Below, piece after piece: positions 19,274 to 40,416 of a stretch of 64,000 nt of DNA (position 1 is the stretch's first letter; each line of letters begins with the position of its first letter). The DNA is from an uncultured Planctomycetia bacterium (GTDB lineage Bacteria > Omnitrophota > Gorgyraeia > Duberdicusellales > Duberdicusellaceae). A program made the translations under genes and the position numbers. The stretch lies in the NCBI GenBank assembly GCA_964634935.1, contig CAZWJT010000001.1, positions 224,949-288,948 of the forward strand. Reading direction: 5' to 3'. The notes beneath the pieces are model-generated. The model saw only the letters and a program-made list of their open reading frames with translations. It ran no database searches and had not been told where the DNA came from.

Positions 19274-19543
19274 TTATTTGCGTAAGCTTAAATCTTTAAT
19301 AACGCTCTCGTATTTTCGCGCGTCTTTCTTTTTTAAGTAGCTCAGCAATCTCCGACGCTTTCCGACAAGAGCGAGCAGACCGCGGCGGGAATGAAAATCC
19401 TTCTTAAACTTCTTAAAATGCTCAGAAAGATTGTTGATTCTTTCTGTCAAGAGCGCTATCTGAACCGAAGCGGATCCCGTATCAACCTCGTGCGTCTTAA
19501 ACTTAGAAATTACCTGCTGTTTTTGTACTTTTGTAACAGCCAT
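19274..19543 (-). CDS. rpsO: 30S ribosomal protein S15
   Basis: 89 aa ([24 protein letters not shown]...). Only 3 nt separate it from the pnp start. Confidence 0.95.
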
Positions 19544-19690: not shown

Positions 19691-20872
19691 CTATCGGAAA
19701 AGAAGGAAAAATAAGGTAAAAACACAGATAAAAAAGATAACCAAGGCAGAAAATATAGTTCGAGTTGGAACAGTATGCTTCAATTCCTCCTCAATTTTCC
19801 TTTTTTCAACGTCGGTTTCCTCAAACTCGCTGCTTTTCAGCTTCAATTGCTCTTCAGTCAATCGTATCTTTTCTTCCAACCCTTGCCGCTCCTGTAAAGC
19901 AACTTCCAGTTTTTGCTTATCTGACGAAAGAACCCCCACTTGATCCTTCAAGGAAGTGTTTTCCTGGGTTAGGGCGGCTACTTTACGATTTAGCTCCTCA
20001 AGTGAAGACGTATCCTGTTGTGCAAGCTTGTTTTTCAATTCTTCGTTTTCCTTTTGCAAGGCAAGAAGCTCATTTGCAGAATCCTGGCCTGCCTTTCCTT
20101 GGGCCTGAGAGATCTCGTTCTTCAAGGAAGTGTTTTCCTGGGTTAGGGCGGCTACTTTTTGGTTGTTCAGTGCCGCCTCATTCAACTGAAGAGACAGCTC
20201 TTTCACTTTGCCTTCGAGTGAAGAAATCTGCGAACGAGAGGCCAACCCCCCTTCCACTAAAGAAGAATTCTCCTTCTTCAAAAGATCGATTTGTGTAACA
20301 AGGCTTTGGCTTTTTGAAAGTTGTACTCTCAGATCCTCATTCTCCTTCCGTAAAACATCCAACTGAACAGTCGCGGTATTTTCACGAAGCTTTTTCTGCA
20401 AATCGGCGTTCTCTTCAGTAAGTATTCTTATTTTTCCTGAAAGTTCATTAACAAGAGCTGCGGAAGCCTGGTATTGATTCGCCTGAGACTGAAAATCTTT
20501 ATTTTCTTTACGCAGGGCTTCAATCTCACGGAATAAATCCGTTGGGGCCCCAAAAGAAGCATTTTTTGCCTGAGCTTTGAGATAAATATTTTCCTGAGTT
20601 AACCGTTGAATGGTGAAGTTCAATTCTTCGAATAAAGCAAGATCCATACTCTTAGGAGCACCGCCTTGTTCGGAAACGGGCAACTCCCCTGTTTCCTGTG
20701 TCTCGGAAAGACTCTTTTCCTTGTCCTGCGGTATGTCCGCGGATGCGCTGAAATCTTTTTCTTGGGAAGGCTTCTGGATATTCTGGGAATTCATAAAAAT
20801 AACGTCCTCGGAGTTTCCTGGACCAAGAGGCGGTGTATTTTCTGGAGAGACTTTGTTCGTCTTCTTGACCAT
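19691..20872 (-). CDS. Tail-anchored coiled-coil protein (about 360 aa coiled coil with repeated ALTQENTSLK units; C-terminal TM helix)
   Basis: Heptad-rich, Q/E/K/L-dominated sequence. C-terminal TIFSALVIFFICVFTLFFLLFR. No signal peptide. Confidence 0.55.
   Translation of the reverse strand: MVKKTNKVSPENTPPLGPGNSEDVIFMNSQNIQKPSQEKDFSASADIPQDKEKSLSETQETGELPVSEQGGAPKSMDLALFEELNFTIQRLTQENIYLKAQAKNASFGAPTDLFREIEALRKENKDFQSQANQYQASAALVNELSGKIRILTEENADLQKKLRENTATVQLDVLRKENEDLRVQLSKSQSLVTQIDLLKKENSSLVEGGLASRSQISSLEGKVKELSLQLNEAALNNQKVAALTQENTSLKNEISQAQGKAGQDSANELLALQKENEELKNKLAQQDTSSLEELNRKVAALTQENTSLKDQVGVLSSDKQKLEVALQERQGLEEKIRLTEEQLKLKSSEFEETDVEKRKIEEELKHTVPTRTIFSALVIFFICVFTLFFLLFR
19946..20158. 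repeat. Two perfect 39-bp direct repeats (19946-19984 and 20120-20158) inside the coiled-coil CDS, 174 bp apart (58 codons, in frame)
   Basis: cttcaaggaagtgttttcctgggttagggcggctacttt occurs twice. It encodes the VAALTQENTSLK unit. Confidence 0.9.
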
Positions 20873-20940
20873 ATTTATATCTTACTTTTTATTTATAATC
20901 TGTCAAGAAATCAACCAGGAAGAAAGGGGTCAAATGACAT

Positions 20941-22572
20941 TCAATTCCGATAATTTTTCCGTGTAAGCACATAAAGCATCTCTTGTGGGAAAAAACGATA
21001 GGCGCAGGTATGCCGAGGGCTTATTTGGTAAGTCTTTTGCAGAAAATCCACGATGTCATCATAGGTAAGCTCCAAGGTGCTCATTGTTGGCTTTTTTTTG
21101 ACGGGGATACTCAGCACTTCTTCAATCAGAAAAACCCTGTGCTGATTATCCAATATGCTTTCTATCTTGTGTCGAAGAAACTCAAAAAGCTCCTCGCGCG
21201 TTCCTTCGCGCTGAAAAATATCATAAAATCTGCAGTTTAAATATCCTAGTTCAAAGAACCGACGGTTGGAAAAATATTCCAAATAGCGCACCCGAAATTC
21301 CGGATATCCAAAATTATTCTTCCCAATAATCAAAATAAGATCCTCTGGGTTTGTTTTTTCACGGATACAACCCGATTGCATCAGATAATAGTTTTTTTCT
21401 GGAATACTGGCAGGATAAATATATGACCAGAAATTTCCAATTCCGTTTGCCACAACTAAAAAAAAGAAAAGAAGCGGTATGATGCGAATCGGAACTAGTG
21501 AAACCCAAAGATACATGCAGATGCTGATTACCAACCAAAAGAATATAAGCAGCGGTGTATAGCGCTGAGTATTAAACGGCTCATAGATAAAAAATATTGA
21601 GATAAACAGAATAAACATAAAAAAACTCGCTACGGTAAGCGCAAAAAGTGCCCGTTCTTTGAAAAGAGGCCGGTAATTGAGCCCGAGAAAAGCGGCGGAA
21701 AAGAAAAAAAGACTCAAGCCGGGAATAGGATTTTCGGTATATCCAAATAATATTTTAGTAAAGTTTTGGGCGATATAGGAAATTTCTTTTGATGCGATGA
21801 CCGAAAATCTCTCATGGGACTTAAACCAAAAAATCATTTCTTTCGCGAAATGCTTGATGCCTGGAAGTATCCCTCCAGAAAAATAGGCTGTGGAATGTTG
21901 TAGGCCAACCAAAAATCCAATTGCGGTATAAGGGATAAGCCAAAACACACACAGACTCACCAGATAGCTTTGGCATAATTTTACTTTTTCTGCTCGAGGC
22001 CTGTTGAGACAGATAAAAGTAATGAGAAAAAAAGGGAAAAAAGTGATGTAGGCTGCAGAAGAAAATGTTGCCAAGGCATGAAAAAATCCTATGAATCGTG
22101 CAGAGGTCTTCCCGGAAAGAATGGTCTTAACCAAAAAATCAATTGAAACAAGCAGAAAAAATATTGAAATGATATGAGTTTCGGCTTCGGTAGCATAATG
22201 CCAAAACTCCGCCGAAAAACCAAGACCAAGCGCACAAGTTAGGGCAAAAAATTTATTGCCGATAAGCCGTTGGAGTATCCGGAAAAACACCACAACAGCA
22301 GCCGCACCAAAAAAAGCGTCAAGTACTTGAAGAGGTAAAAGAGCTGAACCAGCGTAACCGCAGAAACACCAAAGCTGATAAAAAAGATTATTGAACACAT
22401 AGTTGAGCAAATGAAACTGCTGCGAAGGAACAAGGTAGATACTTTTCTCAGCCCATTGTGCTAACGAAATCGAATCGAAATCATACGCTGCGGAAAGGAA
22501 ACTCAAATAGATAAATAATATAGAAAGAAAAATGATAAAAAGAATGAAGAAGTTTTTGAATCTTTCATTCAT
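20941..22572 (-). CDS. Polytopic membrane protein (about 11 TM helices plus C-terminal soluble domain); GT-C-like glycosyltransferase or polymerase candidate
   Basis: 543 aa. Hydrophobic N-terminal two thirds and a soluble C-terminal domain of about 170 aa. No firm family motif. Confidence 0.4.
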   Translation of the reverse strand: MNERFKNFFILFIIFLSILFIYLSFLSAAYDFDSISLAQWAEKSIYLVPSQQFHLLNYVFNNLFYQLWCFCGYAGSALLPLQVLDAFFGAAAVVVFFRILQRLIGNKFFALTCALGLGFSAEFWHYATEAETHIISIFFLLVSIDFLVKTILSGKTSARFIGFFHALATFSSAAYITFFPFFLITFICLNRPRAEKVKLCQSYLVSLCVFWLIPYTAIGFLVGLQHSTAYFSGGILPGIKHFAKEMIFWFKSHERFSVIASKEISYIAQNFTKILFGYTENPIPGLSLFFFSAAFLGLNYRPLFKERALFALTVASFFMFILFISIFFIYEPFNTQRYTPLLIFFWLVISICMYLWVSLVPIRIIPLLFFFLVVANGIGNFWSYIYPASIPEKNYYLMQSGCIREKTNPEDLILIIGKNNFGYPEFRVRYLEYFSNRRFFELGYLNCRFYDIFQREGTREELFEFLRHKIESILDNQHRVFLIEEVLSIPVKKKPTMSTLELTYDDIVDFLQKTYQISPRHTCAYRFFPQEMLYVLTRKNYRN

Positions 22573-22609
22573 CGGAAAATAGGCTGGAATGAAATGTTTA
22601 TTACAGAAA

Positions 22610-24718
22610 TTAAAAACCCCCTGGATCCTTTAAAACTTTCTCTCGAAATTTATTCCACAGTGTGTAAAAATCAGCGCGTGACGCTTCAAGATCGCCAACA
22701 GTATCAAAGGGAGCCTTAATTTCAGAAACAACTTCAGAAAATTTACTGGTAAATCTCTTCGGTACGTACACGATATCGCCATTCTTGAGGATGATGTCGT
22801 TTTTAAGATTCCCATTATAAAGAATATCGTAAACATTGATTAATTTCCGAACTGGACCCTCGGGAGTCTGACGAATAATCTGTACCCTGCGCAGGGCTGA
22901 AGCTTTGCTCGGAAGCCCAGCCATAAACATAAGTTCGCGAATCGTCAAATCCCGGTTTTTCAAACGGTAAATTCCGGGACTGCTGATTTCGCCAAGAACA
23001 TATATTTTTTTACTATTAAACTCGGCAACCTTGACAAATATTTCCGGATTTTCAACAAAACGCGAAAGTTTTCTTGCCACTTCTTCAGAAAGTTGTTTTT
23101 CAGTAAGACCTGCCGCTTTAACTTCAATACCCGCCAACGGCAAAGTAATCGAACCATCTGAACCTACCGTAACGGCACCGCTAAATTCTTCGTGAAACAA
23201 CACAGTCACCCGAACCACATCATCTACATCAATAAGGTATGGAATCCCTGTTTCCTTCTTCTCAGCAAAGAAAAGATTCTCTCGTTTTTTTGCTAACTCA
23301 TCTCGCTCTTTATGTTTCTTGGCCAAACCAATATATACTACTGATTCATGATGCAGAGGATCAAGGGCTAAAACATCCTGGAATTTACCGATTGATTCAT
23401 CCCATTTCGCTTGCGCATAGAGCGCTTTCGCCTGACTCATTAAATCAGTAATCCGAGCTTTTTTCTGAGAAAATTCTGCAATGCGGAGCTGTTCTTCTTT
23501 TTTCGCGATTACTTGCGCCTTCAGTTCTTCTTCAGTATACCCGCGCATCTTAATCTGCGCGAGAGAATGCGTAAGTTTCTGAGCCTCTTCAGCATCGCGA
23601 AACACCTGAATCAATTCTGCCTTACCGGAAGAATGATACGCAAGCACCAATGCTTTTTCCTCTTCTAAAAGCGCTCCTCCGGTTTGTAGCTTCTGCTTCA
23701 TAATCGCAGCAATTTGCTGAAAACTTTCAATACCCGGGTATTTTGCCATTAAAGGAACCAGCTTCTCCTCCGCTTGTTTATAATTAGAGATTGTCATCGC
23801 ATAAATAACGTCTGCGTATTGAGTAAGAACGGCTTCATGTTCGACAAAAGATCCATCCCGTGCTGAAGCGAACAATTCCCGCTTCATTTCTTGCCGCTTC
23901 TGTGCTTCCTCCTGGGCAAATAATTCTGATTTTTCGGTAAAAACACTCTGAGTAAACGAACGCTCACGCGCCATTTCCTCGGCATAAAGCATCGCAAGAT
24001 GCATCTCGCTTTGCTCGGTCTTAATTTCCTGTCTCTTCAGGTTCTTGCGCATAAAAACCTTGGCATACCGGTGCTGAGGATTTAAAATTAAAGTCTCCTC
24101 GAAATACGCCATAGATTTTTCATATTTTCCTTCTTTGTATTTATCAAATCCTTTCTGAAAAGCATCTTTTACTTCATAGGCAATCAGATCTTTATAAACA
24201 GGATTTGAAGAAATTTCCCGGCGAATTGCTTCAAATTGGTCAGGGGATTCTTTCTTGATGACCACGAGTTCTTGAAAAATGCGGCGAACGAAACGTTGAG
24301 CAGTTAAGTTTTGGGGGCTTATCTCGAGAACCTGGCGGAATGCAAGCAAGGCATCTCTCCATTGCCGCCCTTCAAAATTTTCTCGGCCTTCAATAATAAA
24401 CGTTGCGATTGCCTTTGCCCGGGCTGATTCTTCGGCAATATTCCCCTGAGTGGTCACTTTGGAAAGGTCAAACTGGCTTTTACCGTTATTCTGCTCAAGA
24501 AGCATTGCAAAGTTTCTGACTCTCCCTAAGTTGCCTTCAAAATCAACCTGCCCGGAGCTTAGCGCGACCGGCTCATTCTTCTCGGCAACATCGTATTTCT
24601 TCGGACCGTACAAATCTTCTTTCGAACGGGATGAAACAGTCCCCTTTTCGGTCATAACCCCAAAGGCGAATACCGAAGGGATAAGAACTGTCTTCCAGGC
24701 TTTATTGTCGAGCTTCAT
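22610..24718 (-). CDS. Polysaccharide export protein (Wza-like Poly_export plus SLBB domains at the C-terminus) with a long N-terminal helical/TPR-like region
   Basis: C-terminal segment VTVGSDGSITLPLAGIEVKAAGLTEKQL...IYVLGEISSPGIYRL...LMFMAGLP...NGDIVYVP matches the export/SLBB pattern. N-terminal 480 aa is rich in A/E/K helices. Confidence 0.65.
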   Translation of the reverse strand: MKLDNKAWKTVLIPSVFAFGVMTEKGTVSSRSKEDLYGPKKYDVAEKNEPVALSSGQVDFEGNLGRVRNFAMLLEQNNGKSQFDLSKVTTQGNIAEESARAKAIATFIIEGRENFEGRQWRDALLAFRQVLEISPQNLTAQRFVRRIFQELVVIKKESPDQFEAIRREISSNPVYKDLIAYEVKDAFQKGFDKYKEGKYEKSMAYFEETLILNPQHRYAKVFMRKNLKRQEIKTEQSEMHLAMLYAEEMARERSFTQSVFTEKSELFAQEEAQKRQEMKRELFASARDGSFVEHEAVLTQYADVIYAMTISNYKQAEEKLVPLMAKYPGIESFQQIAAIMKQKLQTGGALLEEEKALVLAYHSSGKAELIQVFRDAEEAQKLTHSLAQIKMRGYTEEELKAQVIAKKEEQLRIAEFSQKKARITDLMSQAKALYAQAKWDESIGKFQDVLALDPLHHESVVYIGLAKKHKERDELAKKRENLFFAEKKETGIPYLIDVDDVVRVTVLFHEEFSGAVTVGSDGSITLPLAGIEVKAAGLTEKQLSEEVARKLSRFVENPEIFVKVAEFNSKKIYVLGEISSPGIYRLKNRDLTIRELMFMAGLPSKASALRRVQIIRQTPEGPVRKLINVYDILYNGNLKNDIILKNGDIVYVPKRFTSKFSEVVSEIKAPFDTVGDLEASRADFYTLWNKFREKVLKDPGGF

Positions 24719-26348
24719 CGGATTGACCAGGTTTCAGCAAATAGGCTTTACTTCTTTTTTCAAGTTGACTCGCTTGATCAGCAGTTACTAAAAGCAATTC
24801 CCCTTGCGGAAGCTTTACCCCTTTTGTGAATAAAAAACCTTCGGGAATTTTTCCCTCTTGGTATACGCGCCGCCAGGGATTATCTGTTTTTCCTGAAAGA
24901 CGCAAAAGAGCAGGAGTAAGATAAGCGAATTTTATCTTCTTTCTCTCCTCTTCTCCCATACGCTCCACCAAGCGCAAAAAATCATCCCCCCAAAGGGGCG
25001 TCCAAATCGCAGCTCTGTTCGCAAACCAAGCAACCCTCCAAGGCGCATCAGAGACCACTACTTCATCGTTCTTGGAAATGGACTGCAGATAAAACAAATT
25101 CTTTCGCACGGTTTCATGAGGACGTTGCGGCAGAGCAAAAGCAAAGAATAAAGGAACGGTGTTAAAAATAAGAAAAACGGGAACAACCATCTTACGAAAA
25201 ACAACTCTCTGGATATCTAACCTATGCCACATCTCAAAAAGAAAACCAACACCGATCATAATAATAAAAGGCGTGTAAATAATCATCTGTTCAGCGATGT
25301 GACGCGAAAAACCACTGTAGCAAAAATGAATCGCCATAAGCAGAAATAACCAATATTTAAATTCATGGAAAAAAATATGGCTTTTTTTAAAACGGCAGAA
25401 AAAACCCATAAGAAAAAAAGCAATGACAAAATTTCTCGTGAGCATGAGCGCATTGAAATAAGCCCAATTCAAATTTGCTACGAAACGATGAAAAATATCG
25501 ACAAAGCTGATAGTAGCTGGCGTAAAAACCAAAAGGCTACGAGCCCAATCTGCAGAAGAAATGCCGGTAAAAAATGCGCGCAGATCAAGACTGCTCAAAG
25601 TAAAAAGAGGATTTGCGGTAAGGTACATATTACGAACCCACCAGGGAAGCACCAAACCCAAGAAAGCAAACAACCCAACAAGAAGCTTAGAGATATTTTC
25701 TGTTTTTGCTTTCTTATAAATAAGAACTCCAAGCGGAGCCAATAAAATAAATGTCCAATACCGGGTCAAAAATAAAAGGCCGAGTACAACGCCAATACCG
25801 CAAGCAAGCAAATAGGTGTTTTTTTCGAAAAACATATATACCATGAGGAATAATGCCAAAAACAGGAAAATCAATAACGGTATTTCACTGCCGGAAATCG
25901 CATAACGTAAAAGGAGCGAATTCGAAAAATAAAGAAGCAAGGAAATATTCGCACAAGCTCGATCAAGAATCTTTAAGGTAAAATAATACAGGAGAGCCCC
26001 GGCAAACAGGAAAAAAGCTCCGGAAGTAAAACAAACCATCGTATCATCGACTCCCCCGATGCTGAAAGCCAGAGAAATTAACATAGGCATAAGCGGCGGG
26101 TTCATAAGATCGGGGTGATTGTTGATCCTGGGAGAAACCGCAAAACTTAAAGGACGAATAATCTTTGTCGTAAATCCCTTCCCGACATAGAGCGATTGCC
26201 CGACTTGAGCAAGATCCATTACCTGGGGATCACGGATACCCCGAAACTGCGTTAGAAAATAACCAAGAAAAAAAACCAAACCTACAATACTCCATGCGCA
26301 GGCACGGAGAATCTTCATATTGATGTCGAGAAAGAAATTTTTCTCCAC
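24702..26348 (-). CDS. ArnT/PMT-like (GT39/GT83) polytopic membrane glycosyltransferase
   Basis: 548 aa, many TM helices. First periplasmic loop RDPQVMDLAQVGQSLYVGKGF resembles the ArnT DE-loop. Confidence 0.5.
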   Translation of the reverse strand: MEKNFFLDINMKILRACAWSIVGLVFFLGYFLTQFRGIRDPQVMDLAQVGQSLYVGKGFTTKIIRPLSFAVSPRINNHPDLMNPPLMPMLISLAFSIGGVDDTMVCFTSGAFFLFAGALLYYFTLKILDRACANISLLLYFSNSLLLRYAISGSEIPLLIFLFLALFLMVYMFFEKNTYLLACGIGVVLGLLFLTRYWTFILLAPLGVLIYKKAKTENISKLLVGLFAFLGLVLPWWVRNMYLTANPLFTLSSLDLRAFFTGISSADWARSLLVFTPATISFVDIFHRFVANLNWAYFNALMLTRNFVIAFFLMGFFCRFKKSHIFFHEFKYWLFLLMAIHFCYSGFSRHIAEQMIIYTPFIIMIGVGFLFEMWHRLDIQRVVFRKMVVPVFLIFNTVPLFFAFALPQRPHETVRKNLFYLQSISKNDEVVVSDAPWRVAWFANRAAIWTPLWGDDFLRLVERMGEEERKKIKFAYLTPALLRLSGKTDNPWRRVYQEGKIPEGFLFTKGVKLPQGELLLVTADQASQLEKRSKAYLLKPGQSDEARQ

Positions 26349-32611: not shown

Positions 32612-33790
32612 CTAACCAGTAATAATGCCTTTTTTCTTTAAAGCGCTAGCAAAAGCATCCACAACAAACGGATTATATTGAGTGCCCTTGCGAAGCATGA
32701 TTTCTCGAAGTGCAGTAAGATATGCAAGAGATTTCCTATACGGCCTTTCTGAGGTCATCGCATCAAAGCAATCGGCAACTGCGATAATGCTTGCAATCAA
32801 AGGAATATCCTTCCCACGCATTCCTTGAGGGTACCCACGGCCATTATAATATTCATGATGGTACTTTACGGCAACTGCTGCGTTTTTCAATTCACGAATC
32901 GGTTTGATCATATTGTATCCGATGAGCGGATGACGATGAACCACCGTGCGTTCCTTCTGAGTTAACCCCTGACGTTTATTCAAGATATGCTCAGGAATTC
33001 CGATCTTCCCGATATCGTGAAGAATTCCAGCAATACGAACATCTTCTTTCATGGAAAGGTACGTCTTTTTGTCAATAAGCCCTCCCTGATAGATTTCCTC
33101 GAGGATACTTAAAGCATACTCAGTCACTCGTTCAGTATGACCCAAAGTATAAGAATCTTTCGCCTCTATGGCCCCTGATAAAACTTTCATCATATTGAGA
33201 AATAATTCCCGGTTCTTTTCCACCTGGGATTTTAAGTTTTTAAAAAGCCAGGCATTTTTTAAAGCCATAGCCACATCCAGGGAGAGTACGGACAAAAATC
33301 CCAGTTCCGCAGTCGTGAAATCTTTATTGTTGTTTTTGCGGCCAAACACAGCAACTCCCAAAAGTTCTTTATGAAAATAACAAGGAATGCAAGCATCCGC
33401 TTTTAATCGAACGAATTCACGCTGTATCTTTTCGAAAAATTCCCGATCCCGGCTCCGCTGTTGTCTTTCCAGAAGAATGTCGAGTTGGGAAGAAAGCAAA
33501 TACTGCTTACCCCATTTCTGATGACGAACGCCATTATTAAAATAACGGATCAACGGGTTGTCAGTGCTCACTTCTCCTGCTTTCCGGGACAAAGAACAGT
33601 GAGCATCACGAGAGGCAACTGCGAAAGAATATTTACCGCGGTCGCTATTGTAAAATAAAATCCCTGCATGACAGATATCAATGTTCTTTACGACGGTCTT
33701 CAAGATAAGCTTAATCAGCAGATACGGATCGTGGATTAAAATCATCTGCCGTGCGGCATCTTCGAGAGTCTTGCGATACTTGACGCTCAT
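32612..33790 (-). CDS. GAF domain-containing HD-GYP phosphodiesterase (c-di-GMP)
   Basis: N-terminal GAF-like region. HD motif ILHDIGKIGIP. GYP motif YNGRGYPQG. Confidence 0.85.
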   Translation of the reverse strand: MSVKYRKTLEDAARQMILIHDPYLLIKLILKTVVKNIDICHAGILFYNSDRGKYSFAVASRDAHCSLSRKAGEVSTDNPLIRYFNNGVRHQKWGKQYLLSSQLDILLERQQRSRDREFFEKIQREFVRLKADACIPCYFHKELLGVAVFGRKNNNKDFTTAELGFLSVLSLDVAMALKNAWLFKNLKSQVEKNRELFLNMMKVLSGAIEAKDSYTLGHTERVTEYALSILEEIYQGGLIDKKTYLSMKEDVRIAGILHDIGKIGIPEHILNKRQGLTQKERTVVHRHPLIGYNMIKPIRELKNAAVAVKYHHEYYNGRGYPQGMRGKDIPLIASIIAVADCFDAMTSERPYRKSLAYLTALREIMLRKGTQYNPFVVDAFASALKKKGIITG

Positions 33791-33873: not shown

Positions 33874-34104
33874 TCACCATTGTAACTCTCCTTTTGTTTC
33901 CAGCTGAGGATGGTACCGAAGAGTAAGCCTATTTTTGCACTTGGGGCATCGGAAAGACCTCTTCTGATTCCTTCGATAACGATAGACGAGCCCTGGAAGA
34001 ATAAAAAGAAAGAAAAGAACCTGTTCTTTTTTCTTGTTCCCCGGCCTCACCACTTCCTCGCTCCCAACAAACTTGCAGTGAGGACAATATATCTTTCTCG
34101 CCAT
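33874..34104 (-). CDS. Small zinc-ribbon membrane protein (76 aa; CPHC...TM...CPKC)
   Basis: Start trimmed to MARKIYCPHCKF (1 nt after the motB stop). Central hydrophobic helix VLFFLFILPGLVY is flanked by two CxxC pairs. Confidence 0.45.
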   Translation of the reverse strand: MARKIYCPHCKFVGSEEVVRPGNKKKEQVLFFLFILPGLVYRYRRNQKRSFRCPKCKNRLTLRYHPQLETKGELQW

Positions 34105-34105
34105 A

Positions 34106-34993
34106 CTAATTATTGCTTTCTCCTGGATGAGACTGGACCTCCCCCGGGCTCTGAACCCGCGGTGTTTGCATGGAAACCTCTGTAACCTTTCTTTCTGGAT
34201 CAAGGAGAATCAAGACTACCCGCCGGTTCTTCTTTCTCCCTTCATCTGTAGTATTAGAGGCAACCGGCTGAGTATCAGCAAAACCAGTCGCTTTCAAGCG
34301 TCCCTGAGAAACCCCTTTTTGTTTGATCAAATACTCAACAACTACAACTGCCCGAGCGACTGAAAGATCCCAATTCGAAGTATACCGCTCAAGCCCCTTC
34401 CCCCAGCCAAAATAAGCCCGCTCATCAACAGGAATATTATCAGTATGCCCTTCGATAGAAACCGCATTCTCACAGCTTTTAACAATACTACCAAACATAT
34501 CTAGATAATCCTTTGCGGCAGGAACGAGCTTCGCGCTCCCTTTCTTAAAAAGCAGGTCGGCGCTCACCTTGACCGCAATCCCATCTTTTACCCGGCCAAT
34601 CTCGGTGTGCTGGGCGCCTGCGCTCTCTTGAATTTGTTTCTTCACCTTCTGATAGAAATCACTTGCGGCAGAAGTGGTAAAATCAACCGATTCCTTTCCC
34701 TCTTCCTGAGTCGTAGGAACGCTGATATCATCTTTCCGTTCAGCGGTCTTTACCATGGCAAGTCCTGCAGAGCCTTTTTCCTGTGAATCAGAAAGAAGCA
34801 TCCCGCCAAAACTCCCCAATGCTCCCCTGAGAGAACCAATTGCCCGGCCAAATTTTTTCTCTTCAATACTGGAAAAAGCAACTAAAAGCACGAAGAAACA
34901 AAGCAGGAGATTGTTTAGATCTCCCATAGTCATAACCCAAGCCGGAGCGCCTTCTTCTACTTCCTCTTTATTCAAAAAATCATCGAGCGCCAT
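34106..34993 (-). CDS. motB: MotB-like stator protein with OmpA-family peptidoglycan-binding domain
   Basis: N-terminus PAWVMTMGDLNNLLLCFFVLL with the conserved TM Asp. C-terminal OmpA-like region SIEGHTDN...NRRV. Confidence 0.85.
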   Translation of the reverse strand: MALDDFLNKEEVEEGAPAWVMTMGDLNNLLLCFFVLLVAFSSIEEKKFGRAIGSLRGALGSFGGMLLSDSQEKGSAGLAMVKTAERKDDISVPTTQEEGKESVDFTTSAASDFYQKVKKQIQESAGAQHTEIGRVKDGIAVKVSADLLFKKGSAKLVPAAKDYLDMFGSIVKSCENAVSIEGHTDNIPVDERAYFGWGKGLERYTSNWDLSVARAVVVVEYLIKQKGVSQGRLKATGFADTQPVASNTTDEGRKKNRRVVLILLDPERKVTEVSMQTPRVQSPGEVQSHPGESNN

Positions 34994-35009
34994 AAAAATT
35001 CATCCTAGC

Positions 35010-35807
35010 TTATTTTTTCTCTTGGGCCGGCGGCTGTTCTTGCTGCTGTTTTAACTTTTTCCTGAGTACCGGCGAAAGAAATATAGTCAACGCTTCTTCA
35101 ATCATAACTGAATTTTCATTTGCCTGGATACGTAAAATACCTTCCAAGATAATCGCTTTATTGACAAGTTCTTCGTCGGAGCGCCACTTAAGCTTCTCAG
35201 CGATTGGATTTAAAAAAAGATATGTAACAAGAGCACCGTAAAAGGTAGTAAGAATAGCAACCGCCATACCAGGCCCGATCTTTTTAGGATCATCGAGCAC
35301 TTTAAACATAGCAACCAATCCAATCAAAGTCCCGATCATTCCAAATGAAGGAGCAAGAGTTGCAAACATCTTTACTACTTTTATCCCTTTATCATGACGG
35401 CTCTGGACAAAAGCCATGTCTCGTTCAAGGATATTCCGCAAGACATCTGGCGGGGTTCTGTCGACAATAAGCACAAGCGCTTTGCGGAAGAATTCATTCT
35501 TAACCTTGCTGATCTCTTCTTCAAGGGCCGAAAAACCCTTGGTTCTCGCAAGCCGAGAGATTGCAACGATCTGCTGGATAATCTCAACCGGAGATTCGAT
35601 CTTATGGGTAAATGCGTGCTTGGTCACATTGAAAAAGTTTGCCACTTCTTTAATCGGGTAGGCAACCAGCGTTCCGGCTGTTGCTCCGCCAAAAACAATC
35701 ATCACTGAAGGAATATCCACGTAGGAAAGAAGGCTCGTTCCCATCATGATAGAAACAATCATCAAGGTAATGCCAACAACGATACCGATAATCGTACCTA
35801 AATCCAT
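35010..35807 (-). CDS. motA: MotA/TolQ/ExbB-family proton-channel stator protein
   Basis: Four TM helices in the MotA arrangement. ATG at 35807 used (the track start at 35828 is TTG). 10-nt overlap with the upstream lipoprotein gene. Confidence 0.85.
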   Translation of the reverse strand: MDLGTIIGIVVGITLMIVSIMMGTSLLSYVDIPSVMIVFGGATAGTLVAYPIKEVANFFNVTKHAFTHKIESPVEIIQQIVAISRLARTKGFSALEEEISKVKNEFFRKALVLIVDRTPPDVLRNILERDMAFVQSRHDKGIKVVKMFATLAPSFGMIGTLIGLVAMFKVLDDPKKIGPGMAVAILTTFYGALVTYLFLNPIAEKLKWRSDEELVNKAIILEGILRIQANENSVMIEEALTIFLSPVLRKKLKQQQEQPPAQEKK

Positions 35808-36913
35808 ACAATCCTCCTCATCTCCCAAGAGATGCCGCTCAATGTATCCTGATTTTCCTCATACCATTTATTCCATTCATCAATCGCTTTCTTGTTCTCA
35901 TCGCTGTTCAAGTCACTCTTAAAATCAAATCTCTTGCCCGTAAGTTCAAAAAGCCAAATGATGGCTTCATAGCGAATCAGAGAATCATCGACCGGAAGAA
36001 GGTCAATTAACGCCTTAATGATCCGCTTATCCTTTCTTCCGGCGAGGGCTTCTTTCAAAAAATCAAGATCGTCAACGATCTCATCATTGATCTTGAAATT
36101 AATCAGTTTTCCGGCCTGGCCACCCTTGGCTGCGTCATCCAACTTCTTTTTCTGTTTTGTAACTGTTTCAATCAAGTATTCATAGGGGGAATCATCGCCA
36201 AGCGCAAGAATCGCTCCCGCAATTCCTATCTTGACCGGTTCTTTTACTCCGGAAGCTTTGCGATCCTTCTCAAAAACCTCTTTGAGCTTAGGCAAAGTTT
36301 CCTTTACCTTTAGGTCCTTTAAGCCCAAAGCCGCTTCAAGCCGAACAGCAAAACTCGGATCATCAAGACCCTTGATAAGATACGGCACAGCGTTCTCCTG
36401 TAAAAAACTCCGTAATCCTCCTAAGGCATATTTCCGGATCCGTTCATCAGTATCCTGAAAACCTTGCTCAAGCAAAGAAAGCAGAGTTTCCGGATTGCGC
36501 AGTGCGACTAAACTGGAAAGAGCGACTGAACGCTTGGGAAAACTTTCATGCTTGAGCAATTCGGTAAGAACTGCCACTCCTTCCTTATTCTGGGAAAGCG
36601 TAAGCCCGATAAGTTCCCGAGTCGCCGAATGGCTCTCGCTCTTTCCCAAAGCCTGGTCGAATATCTTCAGAAGAATAGGAACTCCCTTTTCCTTAAATGC
36701 TCCGATAGAATTTGCTATTTGGGCTTTCTTAAAAACATCTTCCTCGCGCAGTAAACTTTCCCCGAATTTCTCCAGGTTCTCTTTTTCTTCTGGTGAGATT
36801 GTCGATTCAATAGAACTTACAATCAATCCGATTTGGTCTTTTTTCTCTTGCGGTTTCCCACACCCTGGAATGAAAAGAAAAAAAATAATGCCTATAATCA
36901 GATAAGCCCTCAT
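35798..36913 (-). CDS. HEAT/PBS-lyase-repeat lipoprotein
   Basis: Signal peptide with lipobox-like FIPGC. Repeated HEAT-like units (ERIRKYALGGL..., DDPSFAVRLEAALGL...). Confidence 0.6.
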   Translation of the reverse strand: MRAYLIIGIIFFLFIPGCGKPQEKKDQIGLIVSSIESTISPEEKENLEKFGESLLREEDVFKKAQIANSIGAFKEKGVPILLKIFDQALGKSESHSATRELIGLTLSQNKEGVAVLTELLKHESFPKRSVALSSLVALRNPETLLSLLEQGFQDTDERIRKYALGGLRSFLQENAVPYLIKGLDDPSFAVRLEAALGLKDLKVKETLPKLKEVFEKDRKASGVKEPVKIGIAGAILALGDDSPYEYLIETVTKQKKKLDDAAKGGQAGKLINFKINDEIVDDLDFLKEALAGRKDKRIIKALIDLLPVDDSLIRYEAIIWLFELTGKRFDFKSDLNSDENKKAIDEWNKWYEENQDTLSGISWEMRRIVWI

Positions 36914-36960
36914 TGATAGAAATTGTAATACCAGCAGGGGGTTTTTTCAAGCAAAATGTC

Positions 36961-38433
36961 CTATGTTTTTGGCTGCTCGGTAGCAGTAATCTTGATCTGG
37001 CCAACAATATAATCAACGATATCCTTATTGTTATAAGGAATTTTGATATAATCAGTCCCACTCCGTGAAGGTTGTTCGGTATAGACAACTTCATCGATCA
37101 TATAGTGTTTCACATAGAATGCGCCTTCAGGAATAGTGATGCTCGTGTAGAAACCGGCTTTAATATAATACTCACCTGCGGGGATATTCTGGGGAAGAGC
37201 AACCCGTACTGGTCCGGTTTCAAACTCCGACCCAACGGGCCAAACCGATGACGCAACCGGAGGGTAGCTTTCGGCGCTTAAAAACGTCTTTGCGCTTACC
37301 TTCTCCACAAGCCTGATAAACATCCTGTAGTTTTCTTTTACATGGGTTTCCGTAGTAAGCTTGAGATTGAGCGTAAAAGATTTCCCAGCTTCCGCCAAGG
37401 CAGGAAAATCGGCAGATTTAAAGCTCAAAAACGGGCGCTCATCGACAACCGTAGTTCCTTCTTGTGGAACAAGCTGAATACTGCTTACTGAATAACCTCT
37501 GCGTTCTTTCAATTCAGAGGCATAGAAATCAAAAAAAGCAATATCGGCAATATTGAGGTAATTGGCAATCTCGGCTAAATCAATCTTCACTGTTTTTCCA
37601 TAATGCTCTTTCGGATCAAGCCAGAGCTTGTATCTTCTCTCCTGGGAATCCTTGAGCTGCAAGGTAACATTCGGCTGCTCCCGCTTTGCCCCACCTTCAT
37701 CTTGAATTTGGAAAGTAAGAAAATCGTAGCGAGACCAGTCCGCGTATTCAGGATGCTCTTTAAAAAAATCATCCATGTAGAATGATGGAAACGGATATCC
37801 AGGATAAAACGTAACATCTACCCAGCCCTTGTTCGCCGCAAAGACTGCGCCGATCGTCTTCCAACGATCCAAGTGTGTTTCCTGAGAAAAATCACTCAAA
37901 AGAAGCGGTTCTACCTTTTTTGCTTCGGCTTTTTCTGATTTTATCACTTTTACCGTAGCCACGGTAAAATCTTTGATGTCGGTATTCGAGTATGGCTCGC
38001 GAATATAAGTCTGTTTGTTCTCCTCTAAAACAACCTCCATAACCCCGCACCGTATGCCATAGTCCCCTTCCGGTAAATCCTTGGGTACATAAATACCGTA
38101 AGGTCCGAGTTTAATCACCTCTGAACTGATCCATTCATCAGTTGGATAATCAAGCTCCGTATCGGCGTTCACAATGAGTTTTCCACTGGAGAGATTCACT
38201 AAATGCAGAAAGAGTTTGAGTGATTTTGGGATATAATCGATGACATAAAAACTGACATAGAGGGGAAGCACTTCGCCTTGTTGCACGGTCTCTGGAATCT
38301 CAATGGCCTTAAACGTAAGAAGGGGGGCTCCTTCCCGAACCTTGGAAACAGTCGTAGTATTCTGAGCAAATCCAACCTCGAGTATCATCGACATACATAA
38401 AAAAACAAAAAAGAAAACTTTTGTCTGTTTCAT
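36961..38433 (-). CDS. Secreted hypothetical protein with an internally duplicated domain of about 80 aa (paralog family A)
   Basis: Signal peptide. N- and C-terminal copies of the motif ...LF.HLV....NAD...P...W..GE...GP..I.IP..LP.GEY...G.F. Confidence 0.5.
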   Translation of the reverse strand: MKQTKVFFFVFLCMSMILEVGFAQNTTTVSKVREGAPLLTFKAIEIPETVQQGEVLPLYVSFYVIDYIPKSLKLFLHLVNLSSGKLIVNADTELDYPTDEWISSEVIKLGPYGIYVPKDLPEGDYGIRCGVMEVVLEENKQTYIREPYSNTDIKDFTVATVKVIKSEKAEAKKVEPLLLSDFSQETHLDRWKTIGAVFAANKGWVDVTFYPGYPFPSFYMDDFFKEHPEYADWSRYDFLTFQIQDEGGAKREQPNVTLQLKDSQERRYKLWLDPKEHYGKTVKIDLAEIANYLNIADIAFFDFYASELKERRGYSVSSIQLVPQEGTTVVDERPFLSFKSADFPALAEAGKSFTLNLKLTTETHVKENYRMFIRLVEKVSAKTFLSAESYPPVASSVWPVGSEFETGPVRVALPQNIPAGEYYIKAGFYTSITIPEGAFYVKHYMIDEVVYTEQPSRSGTDYIKIPYNNKDIVDYIVGQIKITATEQPKT

Positions 38434-39357: not shown

Positions 39358-40416
39358 TTATGGACAATTCTTATCTTGACTCACAACAAAAAGATCGGAA
39401 ACACGAAAATCATCCTGATTTCTTCCCTGGTATAAAAGCCGCAGGTGATGTCCAAACAGCTTCTCGATCGACTCGTCACTGTCGTCTGTCGCTGAACGGA
39501 ATAATCCTCCATCAACCCTGTAATGCCCCGGCGGAAAAACACAAGGAAAGGTGATCTCGGAAGAATTCAATGTATACTCCTTTCCTGCCGGAAGCCCCAT
39601 GGTTGCGGTTGACTGAATATCTGCATTCAAAAACAGTTTCCTTTTCTTGGCTTCTTCCGCGGTAAGTTTATCAGGATAGATATGGATAAACGCCCTATAG
39701 TCATGCTGGAGCGTTTCTGAAGAAGATACGATAAATTGAACACGAAATTTTTCACAAGGATGAACGCACTTCGGAAATTTGCTGCTTACGAGAGAGAGGA
39801 TCGACCGCACTCCCCCATGAGCATTTCCACGCTCGAGAACAAAATTATCACAATACAGAGTTACGTTCCGTAAAGGCCGAGGAAGATAAATATTTACCTG
39901 GGTAATCTCCTGAATATCAAGAACTCCAGCAATGCCAACAAGGGGAATACGTATTTTTGTCGGCTGCTGAGGCGGCAACGCGAATTCACGCTTAAACCGT
40001 TTATCCTGTGAATCTTTAATCTGAACATAGAGCACAATGGTATAACTATGCGGATTATAAACAGTTACCGCAAAGCGGGCATACTCCCGCCAGTCTTTCT
40101 TTGCCCGAGGACCAAAGTCACTATCTTCAAGAACAATCCGGGGAAATGCTTCACGACGGGCAAAAAAGGTTACTTTGCCAGAAAATTTTCCTCCTGAAAG
40201 ATGAGACGTAGATTGTTGAAGTTCTGCCGAATACACCTCCCACTGCGAGATGTTTTTTTGCTCTTCAAAATCTTCAAGTACCTCAAAAGGCGCCTTACGT
40301 TCAAGCCGCGCCAGGAAAACCTCCAGAAAACGGGAAAGGATATCCCGCTTAACATACCCAATCCCGAATAAACCCAAAAGAAAAAAACCTATAAGAATTG
40401 CGATCTTAACGCGCAT
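39358..40416 (-). CDS. Membrane-anchored or secreted hypothetical protein carrying one copy of the paralog-family-A domain
   Basis: N-terminal TM/signal segment. Domain region FIHIYPDKL...LFLNADIQSTATMGLPAGKEYTL...FPPGHYRVDGGLF. Confidence 0.45.
   Translation of the reverse strand: MRVKIAILIGFFLLGLFGIGYVKRDILSRFLEVFLARLERKAPFEVLEDFEEQKNISQWEVYSAELQQSTSHLSGGKFSGKVTFFARREAFPRIVLEDSDFGPRAKKDWREYARFAVTVYNPHSYTIVLYVQIKDSQDKRFKREFALPPQQPTKIRIPLVGIAGVLDIQEITQVNIYLPRPLRNVTLYCDNFVLERGNAHGGVRSILSLVSSKFPKCVHPCEKFRVQFIVSSSETLQHDYRAFIHIYPDKLTAEEAKKRKLFLNADIQSTATMGLPAGKEYTLNSSEITFPCVFPPGHYRVDGGLFRSATDDSDESIEKLFGHHLRLLYQGRNQDDFRVSDLFVVSQDKNCP

What the first reader, a model, noticed from the sequence alone, without database searches (positions are those of the whole stretch)
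33874..36913. MotA/MotB stator module coupled to a HEAT-repeat lipoprotein and a TM zinc-ribbon protein, in a window with no flagellar genes
Four co-directional genes are packed with overlaps or 1-nt gaps: HEAT-repeat lipoprotein (35798-36913), MotA (35010-35807), MotB with OmpA-like PG-binding domain and conserved channel Asp (34106-34993), and a 76-aa protein with two CxxC pairs flanking a TM helix (33874-34104). The lipoprotein stop overlaps the motA start, implying translational coupling and a stoichiometric complex. The module sits at the 3' end of a 12-kb glycan biosynthesis and secreted-protein cluster, directly upstream of a GAF-HD-GYP c-di-GMP phosphodiesterase. No fli/flg/che genes occur anywhere in the 64 kb. 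MotAB/TolQR/ExbBD/AglRQ-type stators are known to power non-flagellar envelope machines. This arrangement (periplasmic HEAT solenoid lipoprotein plus stator plus zinc-ribbon membrane protein) does not match any of those named systems as I know them. It may be a PMF-driven envelope or polysaccharide-handling apparatus, or an unusual accessory-equipped flagellar stator.
Basis: partly seen in the sequence, partly recalled or inferred. Interest (0 to 1): 0.75.

Follow-up and report, generated by a model that had tools for sequence, protein, structure and literature searches.

The report
Flagellar-type stator with two novel partners
A rare uncultured bacterial lineage keeps a four-gene unit in which an ion-driven motor of the kind that spins flagella is paired with two proteins found nowhere else, and we cannot yet tell whether it drives a flagellum or something new.

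Summary
Four co-directional minus-strand genes encode a HEAT-repeat lipoprotein, MotA, MotB and a 76-aa CxxC…hydrophobic…CxxC protein.

The unit is not a chance juxtaposition. The same order recurs in all four other lineages found, including one (L008) with different flanks. An exhaustive scan of 1.84 billion protein representatives found only four full-length members of the HEAT family. Wherever neighbouring DNA is available, each sits next to this MotA.

The interpretation needs correcting. MotAB here is not a Tol/Exb/Agl-type generic motor.
- It aligns end to end with Vibrio PomA.
- It has the plug, the channel Asp and an OmpA-like domain.
- It carries the Na+-type threonines and the indispensable rotor-contact charges R88/E96/D114.
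- Its nearest outgroups sit inside flbD-motA-motB-fliL flagellar operons.

However, secondary rotor contacts are replaced clade-wide: K89, D85, R232 and the otherwise invariant GxNPR motif. MotB also carries a clade-specific 9-aa insert.

The "TM zinc ribbon" is better read as a LITAF-like monotopic zinc ribbon.

The most likely reading (about 0.5) is a flagellar stator with new periplasmic and cytoplasmic accessories. About 0.3 goes to a flagellar-family stator co-opted for a non-flagellar role. The taxon and the genome's flagellar gene content could not be determined.

The parts
35798..36913 (-). HEAT-repeat alpha-solenoid lipoprotein (371 aa). It has a signal peptide with an invariant lipobox Cys18. 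It is predicted to be a periplasmic, lipid-anchored protein-docking scaffold.
   Evidence: Pfam HEAT_2 E 2e-18. The AF2 model is all-alpha, with pLDDT 81 and pTM 0.76. Foldseek finds only generic alphaRep/ARM/PP2A-A solenoids. Cys18 and the C-terminal W-x-x-W motif are invariant in 4 lineages. The family has only 4 full-length representatives among 1.84 billion.
35010..35807 (-). MotA/PomA-type stator A subunit (265 aa) of the flagellar class (FIT/TGI4-like). It has a Na+-type Thr triad and a remodelled secondary rotor-contact surface.
   Evidence: NCBIfam best hit PomA, E 1e-75, 254 bits, below the 341 cutoff. It aligns with V. alginolyticus PomA over residues 1-245. R88, E96, D116 (PomA D114), P153, T160, T187, T188 and P201 are kept. 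K89, D85, R232 and the GxNPR motif are lost in all 4 clade members (roles from PMC10374538).
34106..34993 (-). MotB/PomB-type stator B subunit (295 aa). It has a TM helix with Asp25, a plug, a Gly-rich linker and an OmpA-like peptidoglycan-binding domain. The OmpA-like domain carries a clade-specific 9-aa insert, AYFGWGKGLE.
   Evidence: Pfam MotB_plug and OmpA. Best PDB matches are C. sporogenes MotB and PomB. The insert is absent from flagellar-operon MotBs.
33874..34104 (-). LITAF-like small zinc-ribbon membrane protein (76 aa). Layout: CxxC, then a 14-17 residue uncharged segment with an invariant central Pro-Gly, then CPxC. Predicted monotopic at the cytoplasmic leaflet.
   Evidence: Invariant C7, C10, P37, G38, C53 and C56 in 4 lineages. 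zf-LITAF-like is the only Pfam family hit by all four, over the full length but below cutoff (21.2 vs 23.8 bits). Hydrophobic length and charge layout. The gene was not called in the Logan record and the exact sequence is absent from the protein collection.
36922..36950 (-). Best sigma-70-like promoter match in the region (TTGAAA-17-TACAAT). It lies in the 47-nt gap upstream of the HEAT gene and may be the unit's own promoter.
   Evidence: 10 of 12 matches. This is a consensus match only, not evidence of function.
32612..33790 (-). HD-GYP c-di-GMP phosphodiesterase (392 aa), 83 nt downstream. It is a neighbour and possible co-transcript. No terminator-like site lies between it and the small gene.
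   Evidence: HD_5 E 3e-33; GAF_2 only E 0.004. Also downstream in L007, after a response regulator. Not present in L008. Terminator scan.
36961..38433 (-). Secreted 490-aa protein of unknown family, immediately upstream. It is a paralog of the 352-aa protein at 39358-40416. It accompanies the unit in 3 of 4 lineages with upstream data.
   Evidence: No Pfam, NCBIfam or PDB match. Paralogy E 3e-15. Homologs lie upstream of HEAT in L003, L009 and L011 but not in L008.

Best explanation
A conserved four-gene operon encodes a flagellar-family (PomAB/MotPS-like, Na+-signature) 5:2 ion-driven stator, MotA5B2, together with two clade-restricted partner proteins. It most likely works as an accessory-equipped flagellar stator.

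Shown:
- MotB has the channel Asp, the plug and an OmpA-like peptidoglycan anchor.
- MotA has the intact ion path and the indispensable rotor-contact charges.
- The four genes travel together in every lineage found.

Inferred:
- The HEAT lipoprotein is a periplasmic docking scaffold. It would recruit or stabilise the stator through MotB's periplasmic domain, which carries a clade-specific surface insert. This would be analogous to MotX/MotY, PflA/PflB, FlcA or MotK/MotE.
- The LITAF-like zinc ribbon sits in the cytoplasmic leaflet beside MotA. It may stabilise or gate the unit, with MotA's remodelled secondary contact surface (K90, R85, V234) adapted to it or to a co-evolved FliG.
For: - MotA aligns 1:1 with V. 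alginolyticus PomA over residues 1-245. Its top NCBIfam hits are all flagellar stators.
- 57 of 77 flagellar-conserved columns are identical in all four clade members. These include R88, E96, D116 (PomA D114), H138, both prolines and the Thr triad.
- R88, E96 and D114 are the residues indispensable for motility (PMC10374538).
- MotB has the plug and an OmpA-like domain. These are diagnostic of flagellar rather than generic motors (PMC12505986).
- The nearest outgroup MotAs (49-50% identity) lie in fliG…flbD-motA-motB-fliL…flhA operons.
- The cytoplasmic domain is as constrained within the clade as in real flagellar stators: cyt/TM identity ratio 0.79-1.06 versus 0.88±0.13.
- HEAT-MotA-MotB-small order is seen or partly seen in all four other lineages. 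That includes L008, which has different flanks.
- There is precedent for lineage-specific helical-repeat periplasmic stator scaffolds (PMC7990780; PMC10954123). There is also precedent for a cytoplasmic stator-binding accessory, FlgX (PMC11725899, abstract).
Against: - No flagellar or chemotaxis gene was found in the 64-kb window or in about 30 kb of relatives' contigs.
- The pair is detached from the flbD/fliL context of its nearest relatives.
- All 10 flagellar-conserved positions lost clade-wide are cytoplasmic. They include K89, D85, R232 and the GxNPR motif. G and P of that motif are 100% conserved and R 97% conserved in 116 outgroups, and the motif is kept in PomA, Clostridium and Planctomycetota. 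R232A impairs motility in PomA.
- MotA scores below every NCBIfam flagellar equivalog cutoff.
- No physical interaction between any of the four proteins was tested.
- The HEAT protein has no similarity to known stator scaffolds.
Confidence: 0.5

Rival explanations
1. A flagellar-family stator has been co-opted for a non-flagellar job. MotA5B2 is still ion-driven and peptidoglycan-anchored. Its rotating cytoplasmic face now engages something other than a C-ring, perhaps via the LITAF-like protein, or the unit acts as an envelope or surface sensor. The HEAT lipoprotein would couple it to the outer envelope or the glycan layer. Output would be linked to the neighbouring glycan and c-di-GMP genes.
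For: - No flagellar genes in 64 kb or in relatives' contigs.
- Clade-wide loss of secondary rotor contacts and of the otherwise invariant GxNPR motif, with the ion path intact.
- The clade's cytoplasmic domain is more diverged from flagellar MotAs than expected: ratio 0.65 versus 0.77±0.11.
- Both partner proteins are unique to this unit.
- In three lineages (window, L003/L011, L009/L010) the secreted 490-aa protein lies directly upstream of HEAT; the window and L003/L011 also show the wider secreted-protein/glycan cluster.
- c-di-GMP enzymes lie nearby in all three loci with sufficient flanks: HD-GYP in the window and L007, two GGDEF genes in L008.
Against: - Every known non-flagellar relative belongs to the generic class, not the flagellar class (PMC12505986).
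- The indispensable FliG-contact triad R88/E96/D114 is invariant in the clade, and the cytoplasmic domain is under normal constraint.
- motAB is often unlinked from other flagellar genes, so their absence from about 90 kb is weak evidence.
- The glycan and HD-GYP adjacency matches general collinearity of close relatives and is broken in L008.
- The 76-aa partner has no domain that could transmit work.
Confidence: 0.3
2. MotAB is an ordinary flagellar stator. The HEAT and small zinc-ribbon genes are merely syntenic neighbours with unrelated functions, retained because the genomes compared are closely related.
For: - The flanks are broadly collinear between the window, L003 and L007. For example MGDG synthase, acyltransferase, GT2 and riboflavin synthase follow in the same order.
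- Only five lineages are known.
- The stop/start overlap is unique to the window.
Against: - In L008 both flanks differ but the four genes remain together in the same order with short gaps.
- The HEAT family is found only in this position: 4 representatives among 1.84 billion, each next to this MotA where context exists.
- MotA and MotB both carry clade-specific changes that co-occur with the partners.
- The small protein is highly conserved.
Confidence: 0.12
3. A Zorya-like or other MotAB-based anti-phage or envelope-surveillance system.
For: MotB hits ZorB models through its OmpA-like domain, E down to 8e-20. The HEAT protein weakly hits a PADLOC HEAT-ARM model, E 3e-7.
Against: - MotA has no ZorA match at all and lacks ZorA's long C-terminal tail. 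It is 265 aa and aligns end to end with PomA.
- No ZorC, ZorD or ZorE-like nuclease or helicase gene is nearby.
- The ZorB hits are generic to OmpA-like domains.
- The context is housekeeping and glycan genes, not a defence island.
Confidence: 0.02

Closest known systems
Na+-driven flagellar stator PomAB (Vibrio) / MotPS (Bacillus), the FIT-TGI4 class
   Same: - Same length and architecture, with an essentially gapless alignment to PomA residues 1-245.
- R88, E96, D114, P151, T158, T185, T186 and P199 equivalents are present.
- MotB has the TM Asp, the plug, a Gly-rich linker and an OmpA-like domain.
   Different: - It scores below all NCBIfam equivalog cutoffs (254 versus 341 bits for PomA).
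- K89, D85, R232 and the GxNPR motif are replaced clade-wide, and E90 becomes K.
- MotB has a 9-aa insert in the PG-binding domain.
- It is not in a flagellar operon.
- It is co-encoded with two unique partners.
Periplasmic stator scaffolds: MotX/MotY (T-ring), PflA/PflB, FlcA/BB0236 and MotK/MotE
   Same: These are lineage-specific periplasmic or lipid- or TM-anchored proteins, often helical-repeat (TPR). They recruit or stabilise stators via MotB (PMC7990780, PMC10954123). The HEAT lipoprotein has the same general character: a periplasmic alpha-solenoid docking surface.
   Different: - No sequence or fold-specific similarity. Foldseek returns only generic solenoids.
- The repeats are HEAT, not TPR or Sel1.
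- It is encoded directly upstream of motA in one unit.
- The interaction with MotB is untested.
LITAF/SIMPLE-like domain (PF10601), a zinc-binding monotopic membrane anchor in eukaryotes
   Same: - CxxC, then a hydrophobic segment, then CxxC.
- Full-length match to the profile in all four clade members.
- The hydrophobic stretch is too short for a canonical TM span and has a central Pro-Gly, consistent with a re-entrant insertion (LITAF topology from PMC5095921 and PMC5142333).
   Different: - The score is below Pfam's gathering threshold.
- The hydrophobic segment is 14-17 residues rather than 22.
- It is a bacterial, stand-alone 76-aa protein.
- Association with a stator is unprecedented as far as these searches show.
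Cytoplasmic stator-binding accessories (FlgX PilZ tetramer in Campylobacter; YcgR/MotI brakes)
   Same: These are small proteins acting on the cytoplasmic side of MotA to stabilise or brake stator units (PMC11725899, abstract). That is the role proposed for the zinc-ribbon protein.
   Different: No homology. The small protein here is membrane-embedded and has no PilZ domain. The resemblance is functional analogy only.
Generic 5:2 motors: TolQR, ExbBD, AglRQS and ZorAB
   Same: Ion-driven A5B2 architecture and adjacent A and B genes.
   Different: They have a condensed cytoplasmic domain, no plug and linker, no OmpA-homologous anchor, and TolA/TonB-type or Zor effector partners (PMC12505986). 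None of this applies here.

Membership tests
Flagellar stator MotAB/PomAB (FIT class, TGI4) | A subunit with 4 TM helices and an expanded cytoplasmic torque-generating domain, alignable end to end with a solved flagellar stator | tested here: met
   phmmer to PomA 8bri, E 7e-55, residues 1-245 to 1-243 with one 2-residue indel. The helix count was not modelled directly.
Flagellar stator MotAB/PomAB (FIT class, TGI4) | Indispensable rotor-contact charges (PomA R88, E96, D114; E. coli R90, E98) | tested here: met
   R88, E96 and D/E116 are present in all four clade MotAs. Roles from PMC10374538 and PMC6079164.
Flagellar stator MotAB/PomAB (FIT class, TGI4) | Secondary rotor-contact and structural residues (PomA K89, the R232-D85 salt bridge, the GxNPR motif) | tested here: not met
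   K89 becomes T or I, D85 becomes R, R232 becomes V, and GxNPR becomes [NKR]E[NS]SV in all four members. In 116 outgroups G and P are 100% conserved and R is 97% conserved.
Flagellar stator MotAB/PomAB (FIT class, TGI4) | Ion path: conserved prolines in TM3/TM4, the B-subunit TM Asp, and the Thr triad for the Na+ type | tested here: met
   P153, P201, T160, T187 and T188 are kept. MotB D25 aligns with the PomB/MotB Asp.
Flagellar stator MotAB/PomAB (FIT class, TGI4) | B subunit with plug and linker plus an OmpA-homologous peptidoglycan-binding domain | tested here: met
   MotB_plug E 3.5e-13 and OmpA E 1.5e-18, both above their cutoffs.
Flagellar stator MotAB/PomAB (FIT class, TGI4) | Score above a curated equivalog threshold (NCBIfam PomA, MotP, MotA, MotB or MotS) | tested here: not met
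   MotA's best score is 254 bits against a cutoff of 341. MotB's best is 174 against 259.
Flagellar stator MotAB/PomAB (FIT class, TGI4) | Genome encodes a flagellar rotor (FliG/FliM/FliN) and basal body, and the unit drives flagellar rotation | not testable with these tools
   Only 64 kb of the source genome was available. There are no flagellar genes in it or in relatives' contigs. The taxon is undetermined.
Zorya (ZorAB plus effectors) | ZorA-type A subunit with a long cytoplasmic tail, plus ZorC/ZorD or ZorE genes | tested here: not met
   No PADLOC hit for MotA. Only generic OmpA-domain hits of MotB to ZorB. No effector-like neighbours.
Tol-Pal / Ton / Agl generic motors (GIT) | Condensed cytoplasmic domain, no plug, a non-OmpA periplasmic domain, and a TolA/TonB-like partner | tested here: not met
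   The opposite features were found. No TolA/TonB-like gene lies in the unit. Criteria from PMC12505986.
LITAF-like zinc ribbon (PF10601) | Two Cys knuckles flanking a membrane-inserted hydrophobic segment, matching the profile over its full length | tested here: inconclusive
   The architecture is present and invariant. All four members hit the profile, and the window copy's match (the only one listed residue by residue) spans profile positions 4-67 of 70. However the best score is 21.2 bits against a cutoff of 23.8. The AF2 single-sequence model was uninformative, pLDDT 54.
LITAF-like zinc ribbon (PF10601) | Zinc binding and monotopic topology, with both termini on one side | not testable with these tools
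   Inferred only. The uncharged stretch is 14-17 residues with a central Pro-Gly, followed by a +4 to +7 charge cluster. One four-Cys site also requires both knuckles on the same side.
HEAT-repeat alpha-solenoid | Tandem helix-turn-helix repeats forming a solenoid | tested here: met
   HEAT_2 66.6 bits against a cutoff of 27.7. The AF2 model has 20 helices, pLDDT 81. Foldseek probability is 1.0 to alphaRep, ARM and PP2A-A.
Bacterial lipoprotein | Signal peptide ending in a lipobox with an invariant Cys | tested here: inconclusive
   A short hydrophobic region is followed by IPGC, SGAC, LFSC or FFGC, with the Cys invariant in four lineages. The boxes deviate from the classical L-[AS]-[GA]-C. 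No dedicated predictor was available.

The most novel reading that the evidence does not exclude
This is the first flagellar-class (FIT) stator working outside a flagellum. The lineage would lack flagella. The MotA5B2 rotary unit, anchored to peptidoglycan and docked to a HEAT lipoprotein, would use ion flow to act on a membrane-embedded LITAF-like partner or another cytoplasmic-face target. Its output would feed envelope glycan handling or c-di-GMP signalling.
Probability: 0.3. Interest if true: 0.85.

Novelty: new variant of a known kind. Interest (0 to 1): 0.55.

Why it matters
Flagellar stators are regarded as a single, structurally conserved class tied to flagella, and all known non-flagellar 5:2 motors belong to a separate generic class. 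This unit shows a flagellar-class stator that has left the flagellar operon and acquired two partners seen nowhere else. It has also rewritten the secondary part of its rotor-facing surface while keeping the ion path and the primary contacts.

If the lineage is flagellated, this adds a new kind of stator accessory pair: a periplasmic HEAT lipoprotein and a monotopic zinc ribbon. That would be useful for understanding how stators are recruited and gated. If the lineage is not flagellated, it would be the first co-option of a flagellar-class stator for another task.

It is also a rare bacterial case of a LITAF-like membrane-inserted zinc ribbon with a defined genomic partner.

Tried and rejected
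**Taxon and whole-genome flagellar content: all attempts failed.**
- The genome-contig scan with MotA returned only an unrelated Planctomycetota MAG at 37% identity, with a lone motAB and no HEAT gene.
- Cluster look-ups gave no names. Even ribosomal protein S15 is a singleton at 90% identity.
- A literature search for sample and assembly accessions found nothing.
- Walking left from the window failed because the ORF's exact product is not indexed.
- The Logan contig ends about 550 bp beyond the window's right edge (computed).

**Widening the HEAT family.**
- Two word-seeded searches found essentially nothing new.
- The exhaustive scan added one lineage.
- The metagenome scan only re-found the L003 lineage.

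**Structure.**
- The single-sequence run gave pLDDT 54 and was unusable.
- No multimer prediction was available.
- Foldseek of the HEAT model gave only generic solenoids.

**Other checks.**
- Zorya was considered and rejected.
- Rfam found nothing in the window.
- The upstream 490-aa protein has no PDB sequence relatives.
- Translational coupling between HEAT and MotA was rejected as a conserved feature, because the overlap occurs only in the window.

Full report
**1. Observation**

The four ORFs are present on the minus strand exactly as described:

| Gene | Coordinates | Length |
|---|---|---|
| HEAT protein | 35798-36913 | 371 aa |
| MotA | 35010-35807 | 265 aa |
| MotB | 34106-34993 | 295 aa |
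| Small protein | 33874-34104 | 76 aa |

Pfam and NCBIfam confirm the domains.
- HEAT_2 scores E 2e-18.
- MotA_ExbB scores E 7e-27. The best NCBIfam matches are PomA (E 1e-75), MotP and MotA.
- MotB_plug and OmpA are both found.
- The small protein gives only weak zinc-ribbon hits.

The HEAT stop overlaps the motA start by 10 nt. The other two junctions are 16 nt and 1 nt.

The downstream gene is an HD-GYP phosphodiesterase. Its GAF domain is only weakly supported. The upstream glycan and secreted-protein cluster is real.

No flagellar or chemotaxis domain occurs in any ORF of 150 aa or more. The small ORFs in the gaps are S15, NusB, a thioesterase, QueF and similar.

**2. Is it a unit?**

MotA's three closest relatives in a 5.8-billion-protein collection are 56-60% identical. 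They stand well apart from the next hits, which are at most 50% identical. Their contigs show the same arrangement.

| Locus | Arrangement |
|---|---|
| L003 | GH123, hyp, deacetylase, hyp474, HEAT, MotA, MotB, small gene |
| L007 | (HEAT C-terminal fragment at the contig edge), MotA, MotB, small gene, response regulator, HD-GYP, MGDG synthase, acyltransferase |
| L008 | alanine racemase, HEAT, MotA, MotB, small gene, then an opposite-strand gene |
| L009/L010 | 490-aa homolog, HEAT, MotA |

L008 is the informative case. Both flanks differ there, yet the four genes stay together.

By contrast, the glycan and HD-GYP neighbourhood is shared only among loci that are collinear over many unrelated genes. 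It is therefore weak evidence of functional linkage.

The stop/start overlap is unique to the window. Relatives have gaps of 19-72 nt at that junction.

The strongest promoter-like site in the region lies in the 47-nt gap just upstream of the HEAT gene. It is a consensus match only.

**3. The partners are unique to this unit**

Word-seeded searches with the HEAT protein, and with a three-sequence profile of it, found essentially only family members.

An exhaustive HMMER scan of 1.84 billion representatives found four full-length single-stretch relatives. After those came giant multi-HEAT proteins that match by repeat only.

The HEAT proteins are 34-38% identical to each other. They share an invariant Cys at the end of a short hydrophobic N-terminus and a C-terminal W-x-x-W motif.

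AF2 gives a confident all-alpha solenoid, with pLDDT 81. Foldseek matches only generic alphaRep, armadillo and PP2A-A scaffolds. The fold indicates a protein-docking surface and nothing more specific.

The small protein is 48-53% identical across four lineages. C7, C10, P37, G38, C53, P54 and C56 are invariant.
- Its uncharged segment is only 14-17 residues long.
- That segment has a central Pro-Gly and is followed by a +4 to +7 charge cluster.
- zf-LITAF-like is the only Pfam family hit by all four members; the window copy's match covers the full length, but every score is below cutoff.

LITAF is a zinc-binding monotopic membrane protein. Its two Cys knuckles flank a membrane-embedded hydrophobic segment (PMC5095921, PMC5142333). 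Four cysteines must come together to bind one zinc ion. I infer that side to be cytoplasmic. This is inference: the single-sequence AF2 model was unusable.

**4. What kind of MotAB is this?**

MotA aligns in register with V. alginolyticus PomA. I aligned the four clade MotAs with 116 outgroup hits and PomA.
- 77 columns are at least 85% conserved in the outgroup.
- The clade keeps 57 of these in all four members.
- The kept positions include both TM prolines, the Thr158/185/186 triad, R88, E96, D114 (window D116) and H136.

Hu et al. report the Thr triad as conserved in all sodium-driven stators. They also report R88, E96 and D114 as the charges indispensable for motility (PMC10374538).

MotB keeps the channel Asp, the plug, a Gly-rich linker and the OmpA-like domain.

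In the framework of Puente-Lelievre et al., flagellar stators (FIT) are defined by four features: an expanded torque interface, an unbroken TM core, a plug and linker, and an OmpA-homologous anchor. All characterised non-flagellar relatives (ExbBD, TolQR, AglRS) fall in a separate generic class that lacks these features (PMC12505986). By every sequence-level criterion this pair is FIT, TGI4-like.

The nearest outgroups, P0012 and P0010, lie inside canonical flagellar operons: fliG-H-I-J…flgE-flbD-motA-motB-fliL-fliM-fliY…flhA.

Zorya is excluded. MotA has no ZorA hit and there are no effector genes.

**5. What is unusual about it?**

Ten flagellar-conserved positions are lost in all four clade members. 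All ten lie in the cytoplasmic domain.

| Position | Change in the clade | Outgroup state |
|---|---|---|
| E90 | becomes K | E or D in 97%, K in 0% |
| K89 | lost | R in 67% of outgroups (K in PomA) |
| D85 | becomes R | N most frequent, 40% (D in PomA) |
| GxNPR motif | becomes [NKR]E[NS]SV | G 100%, P 100%, R 97% |

- The GxNPR motif is also kept in PomA, C. sporogenes MotA and a Planctomycetota MotA.
- R232 lies on the (+) face that binds the FliG torque helix and salt-bridges D85. R232A impairs motility.
- Within the clade the cytoplasmic domain is as constrained relative to the TM core as in true flagellar stators: 0.79-1.06 versus 0.88±0.13.
- Relative to the outgroup it is more diverged than expected: 0.65 versus 0.77±0.11.
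- This pattern fits a burst of change on the stem of the clade followed by purifying selection. It points to an altered but still important cytoplasmic partner surface.
- MotB carries a clade-specific 9-residue insert, (A/K)YFGW(G/A)KGLE. It sits between the GHTDN and SNWxLS motifs of the peptidoglycan-binding domain.
- MotA and MotB both score below every NCBIfam flagellar equivalog cutoff.

**6. Mechanism**

Shown by sequence:
- This is an ion-conducting A5B2-type stator with a Na+ signature.
- It has a plug and a peptidoglycan anchor.
- It keeps the primary rotor-binding charges.

Inferred:
- The HEAT lipoprotein docks the stator in the periplasm, probably through MotB's modified periplasmic domain. 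This would parallel the lineage-specific scaffolds MotX/MotY, PflA/PflB, FlcA/BB0236 and MotK/MotE (PMC7990780, PMC10954123).
- The LITAF-like protein sits in the inner leaflet next to MotA. It could stabilise or gate the unit, as the unrelated FlgX does from the cytoplasm (PMC11725899).

What the stator turns could not be determined.

I weighed a strong prior that FIT stators are flagellar against the clade-wide loss of otherwise invariant secondary contacts and the lack of any flagellar gene in about 90 kb of clade sequence.

| Reading | Confidence |
|---|---|
| Flagellar stator with new accessories | about 0.5 |
| Non-flagellar co-option | about 0.3 |
| Unrelated neighbours | about 0.12 |
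| Defence system | about 0.02 |

**7. Limits**

The source organism could not be identified.
- The one genome-collection scan missed it.
- No source names exist, and even S15 is a singleton cluster.
- Literature searches on the accessions found nothing.

Only 64 kb of a contig recorded as 353,849 bp could be read. No protein-protein interaction was tested. The clade currently consists of five lineages known only from metagenome-derived contigs; the samples' habitats were not established here.

**8. Verdict**

This is a flagellar-class stator with two novel partners and a remodelled secondary rotor interface.

It is a new variant of a known kind and of moderate interest. The interest would become high if the lineage proves to lack flagella.

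Noticed in passing
window 36961-38433 and 39358-40416 (minus strand): Two secreted proteins (490 aa and 352 aa) with no Pfam, NCBIfam or PDB match are paralogs of each other (BLASTP E 3e-15). They share a weak CBM-like region followed by a repeated '…P-x-G-x-Y-x-(4)-G-x-(F/Y)…' beta-type domain. Homologs of both lie upstream of the HEAT gene in L003/L011; L009 shows the C-terminal end of a 490-aa homolog.
   Followed up: partly
window 34106-34993 (MotB residues about 193-201): A clade-specific 9-residue insertion, AYFGWGKGLE, lies inside the OmpA-like peptidoglycan-binding domain, between the GHTDN and SNWDLS motifs. It is conserved in all four clade MotBs and absent from flagellar-operon MotBs and from PomB.
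   Followed up: partly
window 33874-34104; L001 12808-13124: The 76-aa zinc-ribbon gene was not called by the gene finder in the Logan record. Its exact sequence is absent from the 15-billion-protein collection, although orthologs were called in L007 and L008. It is a conserved small gene that automated annotation misses.
   Followed up: yes
whole window 1-64000: Nearly every gene of 150 aa or more (about 53 of 58 listed ORFs, the rest mostly spurious overlaps) is on the minus strand. GC skew is negative in every 2-kb bin, with cumulative skew -3.24. This suggests a single replichore with strong co-orientation of genes.
   Followed up: no
whole window (e.g. S15 19274-19543, PNPase 17183-19270, RibH 53258-53722): All nine housekeeping proteins that were found in the collection (of ten looked up), including ribosomal protein S15, are singleton clusters at 90% identity among about 15 billion proteins and carry no source names. 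The organism appears to be sampled only once.
   Followed up: partly
window 19691-26348 (minus strand): This stretch is a possible polysaccharide export module. It holds a 702-aa TPR + Poly_export + SLBB (Wza-like) protein, a 548-aa PMT_2-type glycosyltransferase, a 543-aa protein with no family and a 393-aa coiled-coil protein. It is separate from the GT4/GH123 cluster next to the stator unit.
   Followed up: no
window 9587-10851 (minus strand): An AAA_22 ATPase (284 aa, ExeA/GspA-like by domain) is followed by a 137-aa single-TM protein. The pairing resembles the GspA/GspB-type secretin-assembly pair. The resemblance was not tested.
   Followed up: no
L008 624-2854; L007 2541-4102; window 32612-33790: c-di-GMP genes lie near the unit in all three loci with enough flank. 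L008 has two GGDEF proteins upstream. L007 has a response regulator plus HD-GYP downstream. The window has HD-GYP downstream. This may be coincidence or a regulatory link.
   Followed up: no
L002 9998-11503 (Planctomycetota MAG JAXMAQ010000006.1): A lone motA-motB pair lies downstream of a histidine kinase. Its MotA matches Vibrio PomA better (216 bits) than the window's MotA does (189 bits). Its MotB-like protein has a degenerate OmpA-like region. It has no HEAT or zinc-ribbon partners.
   Followed up: partly
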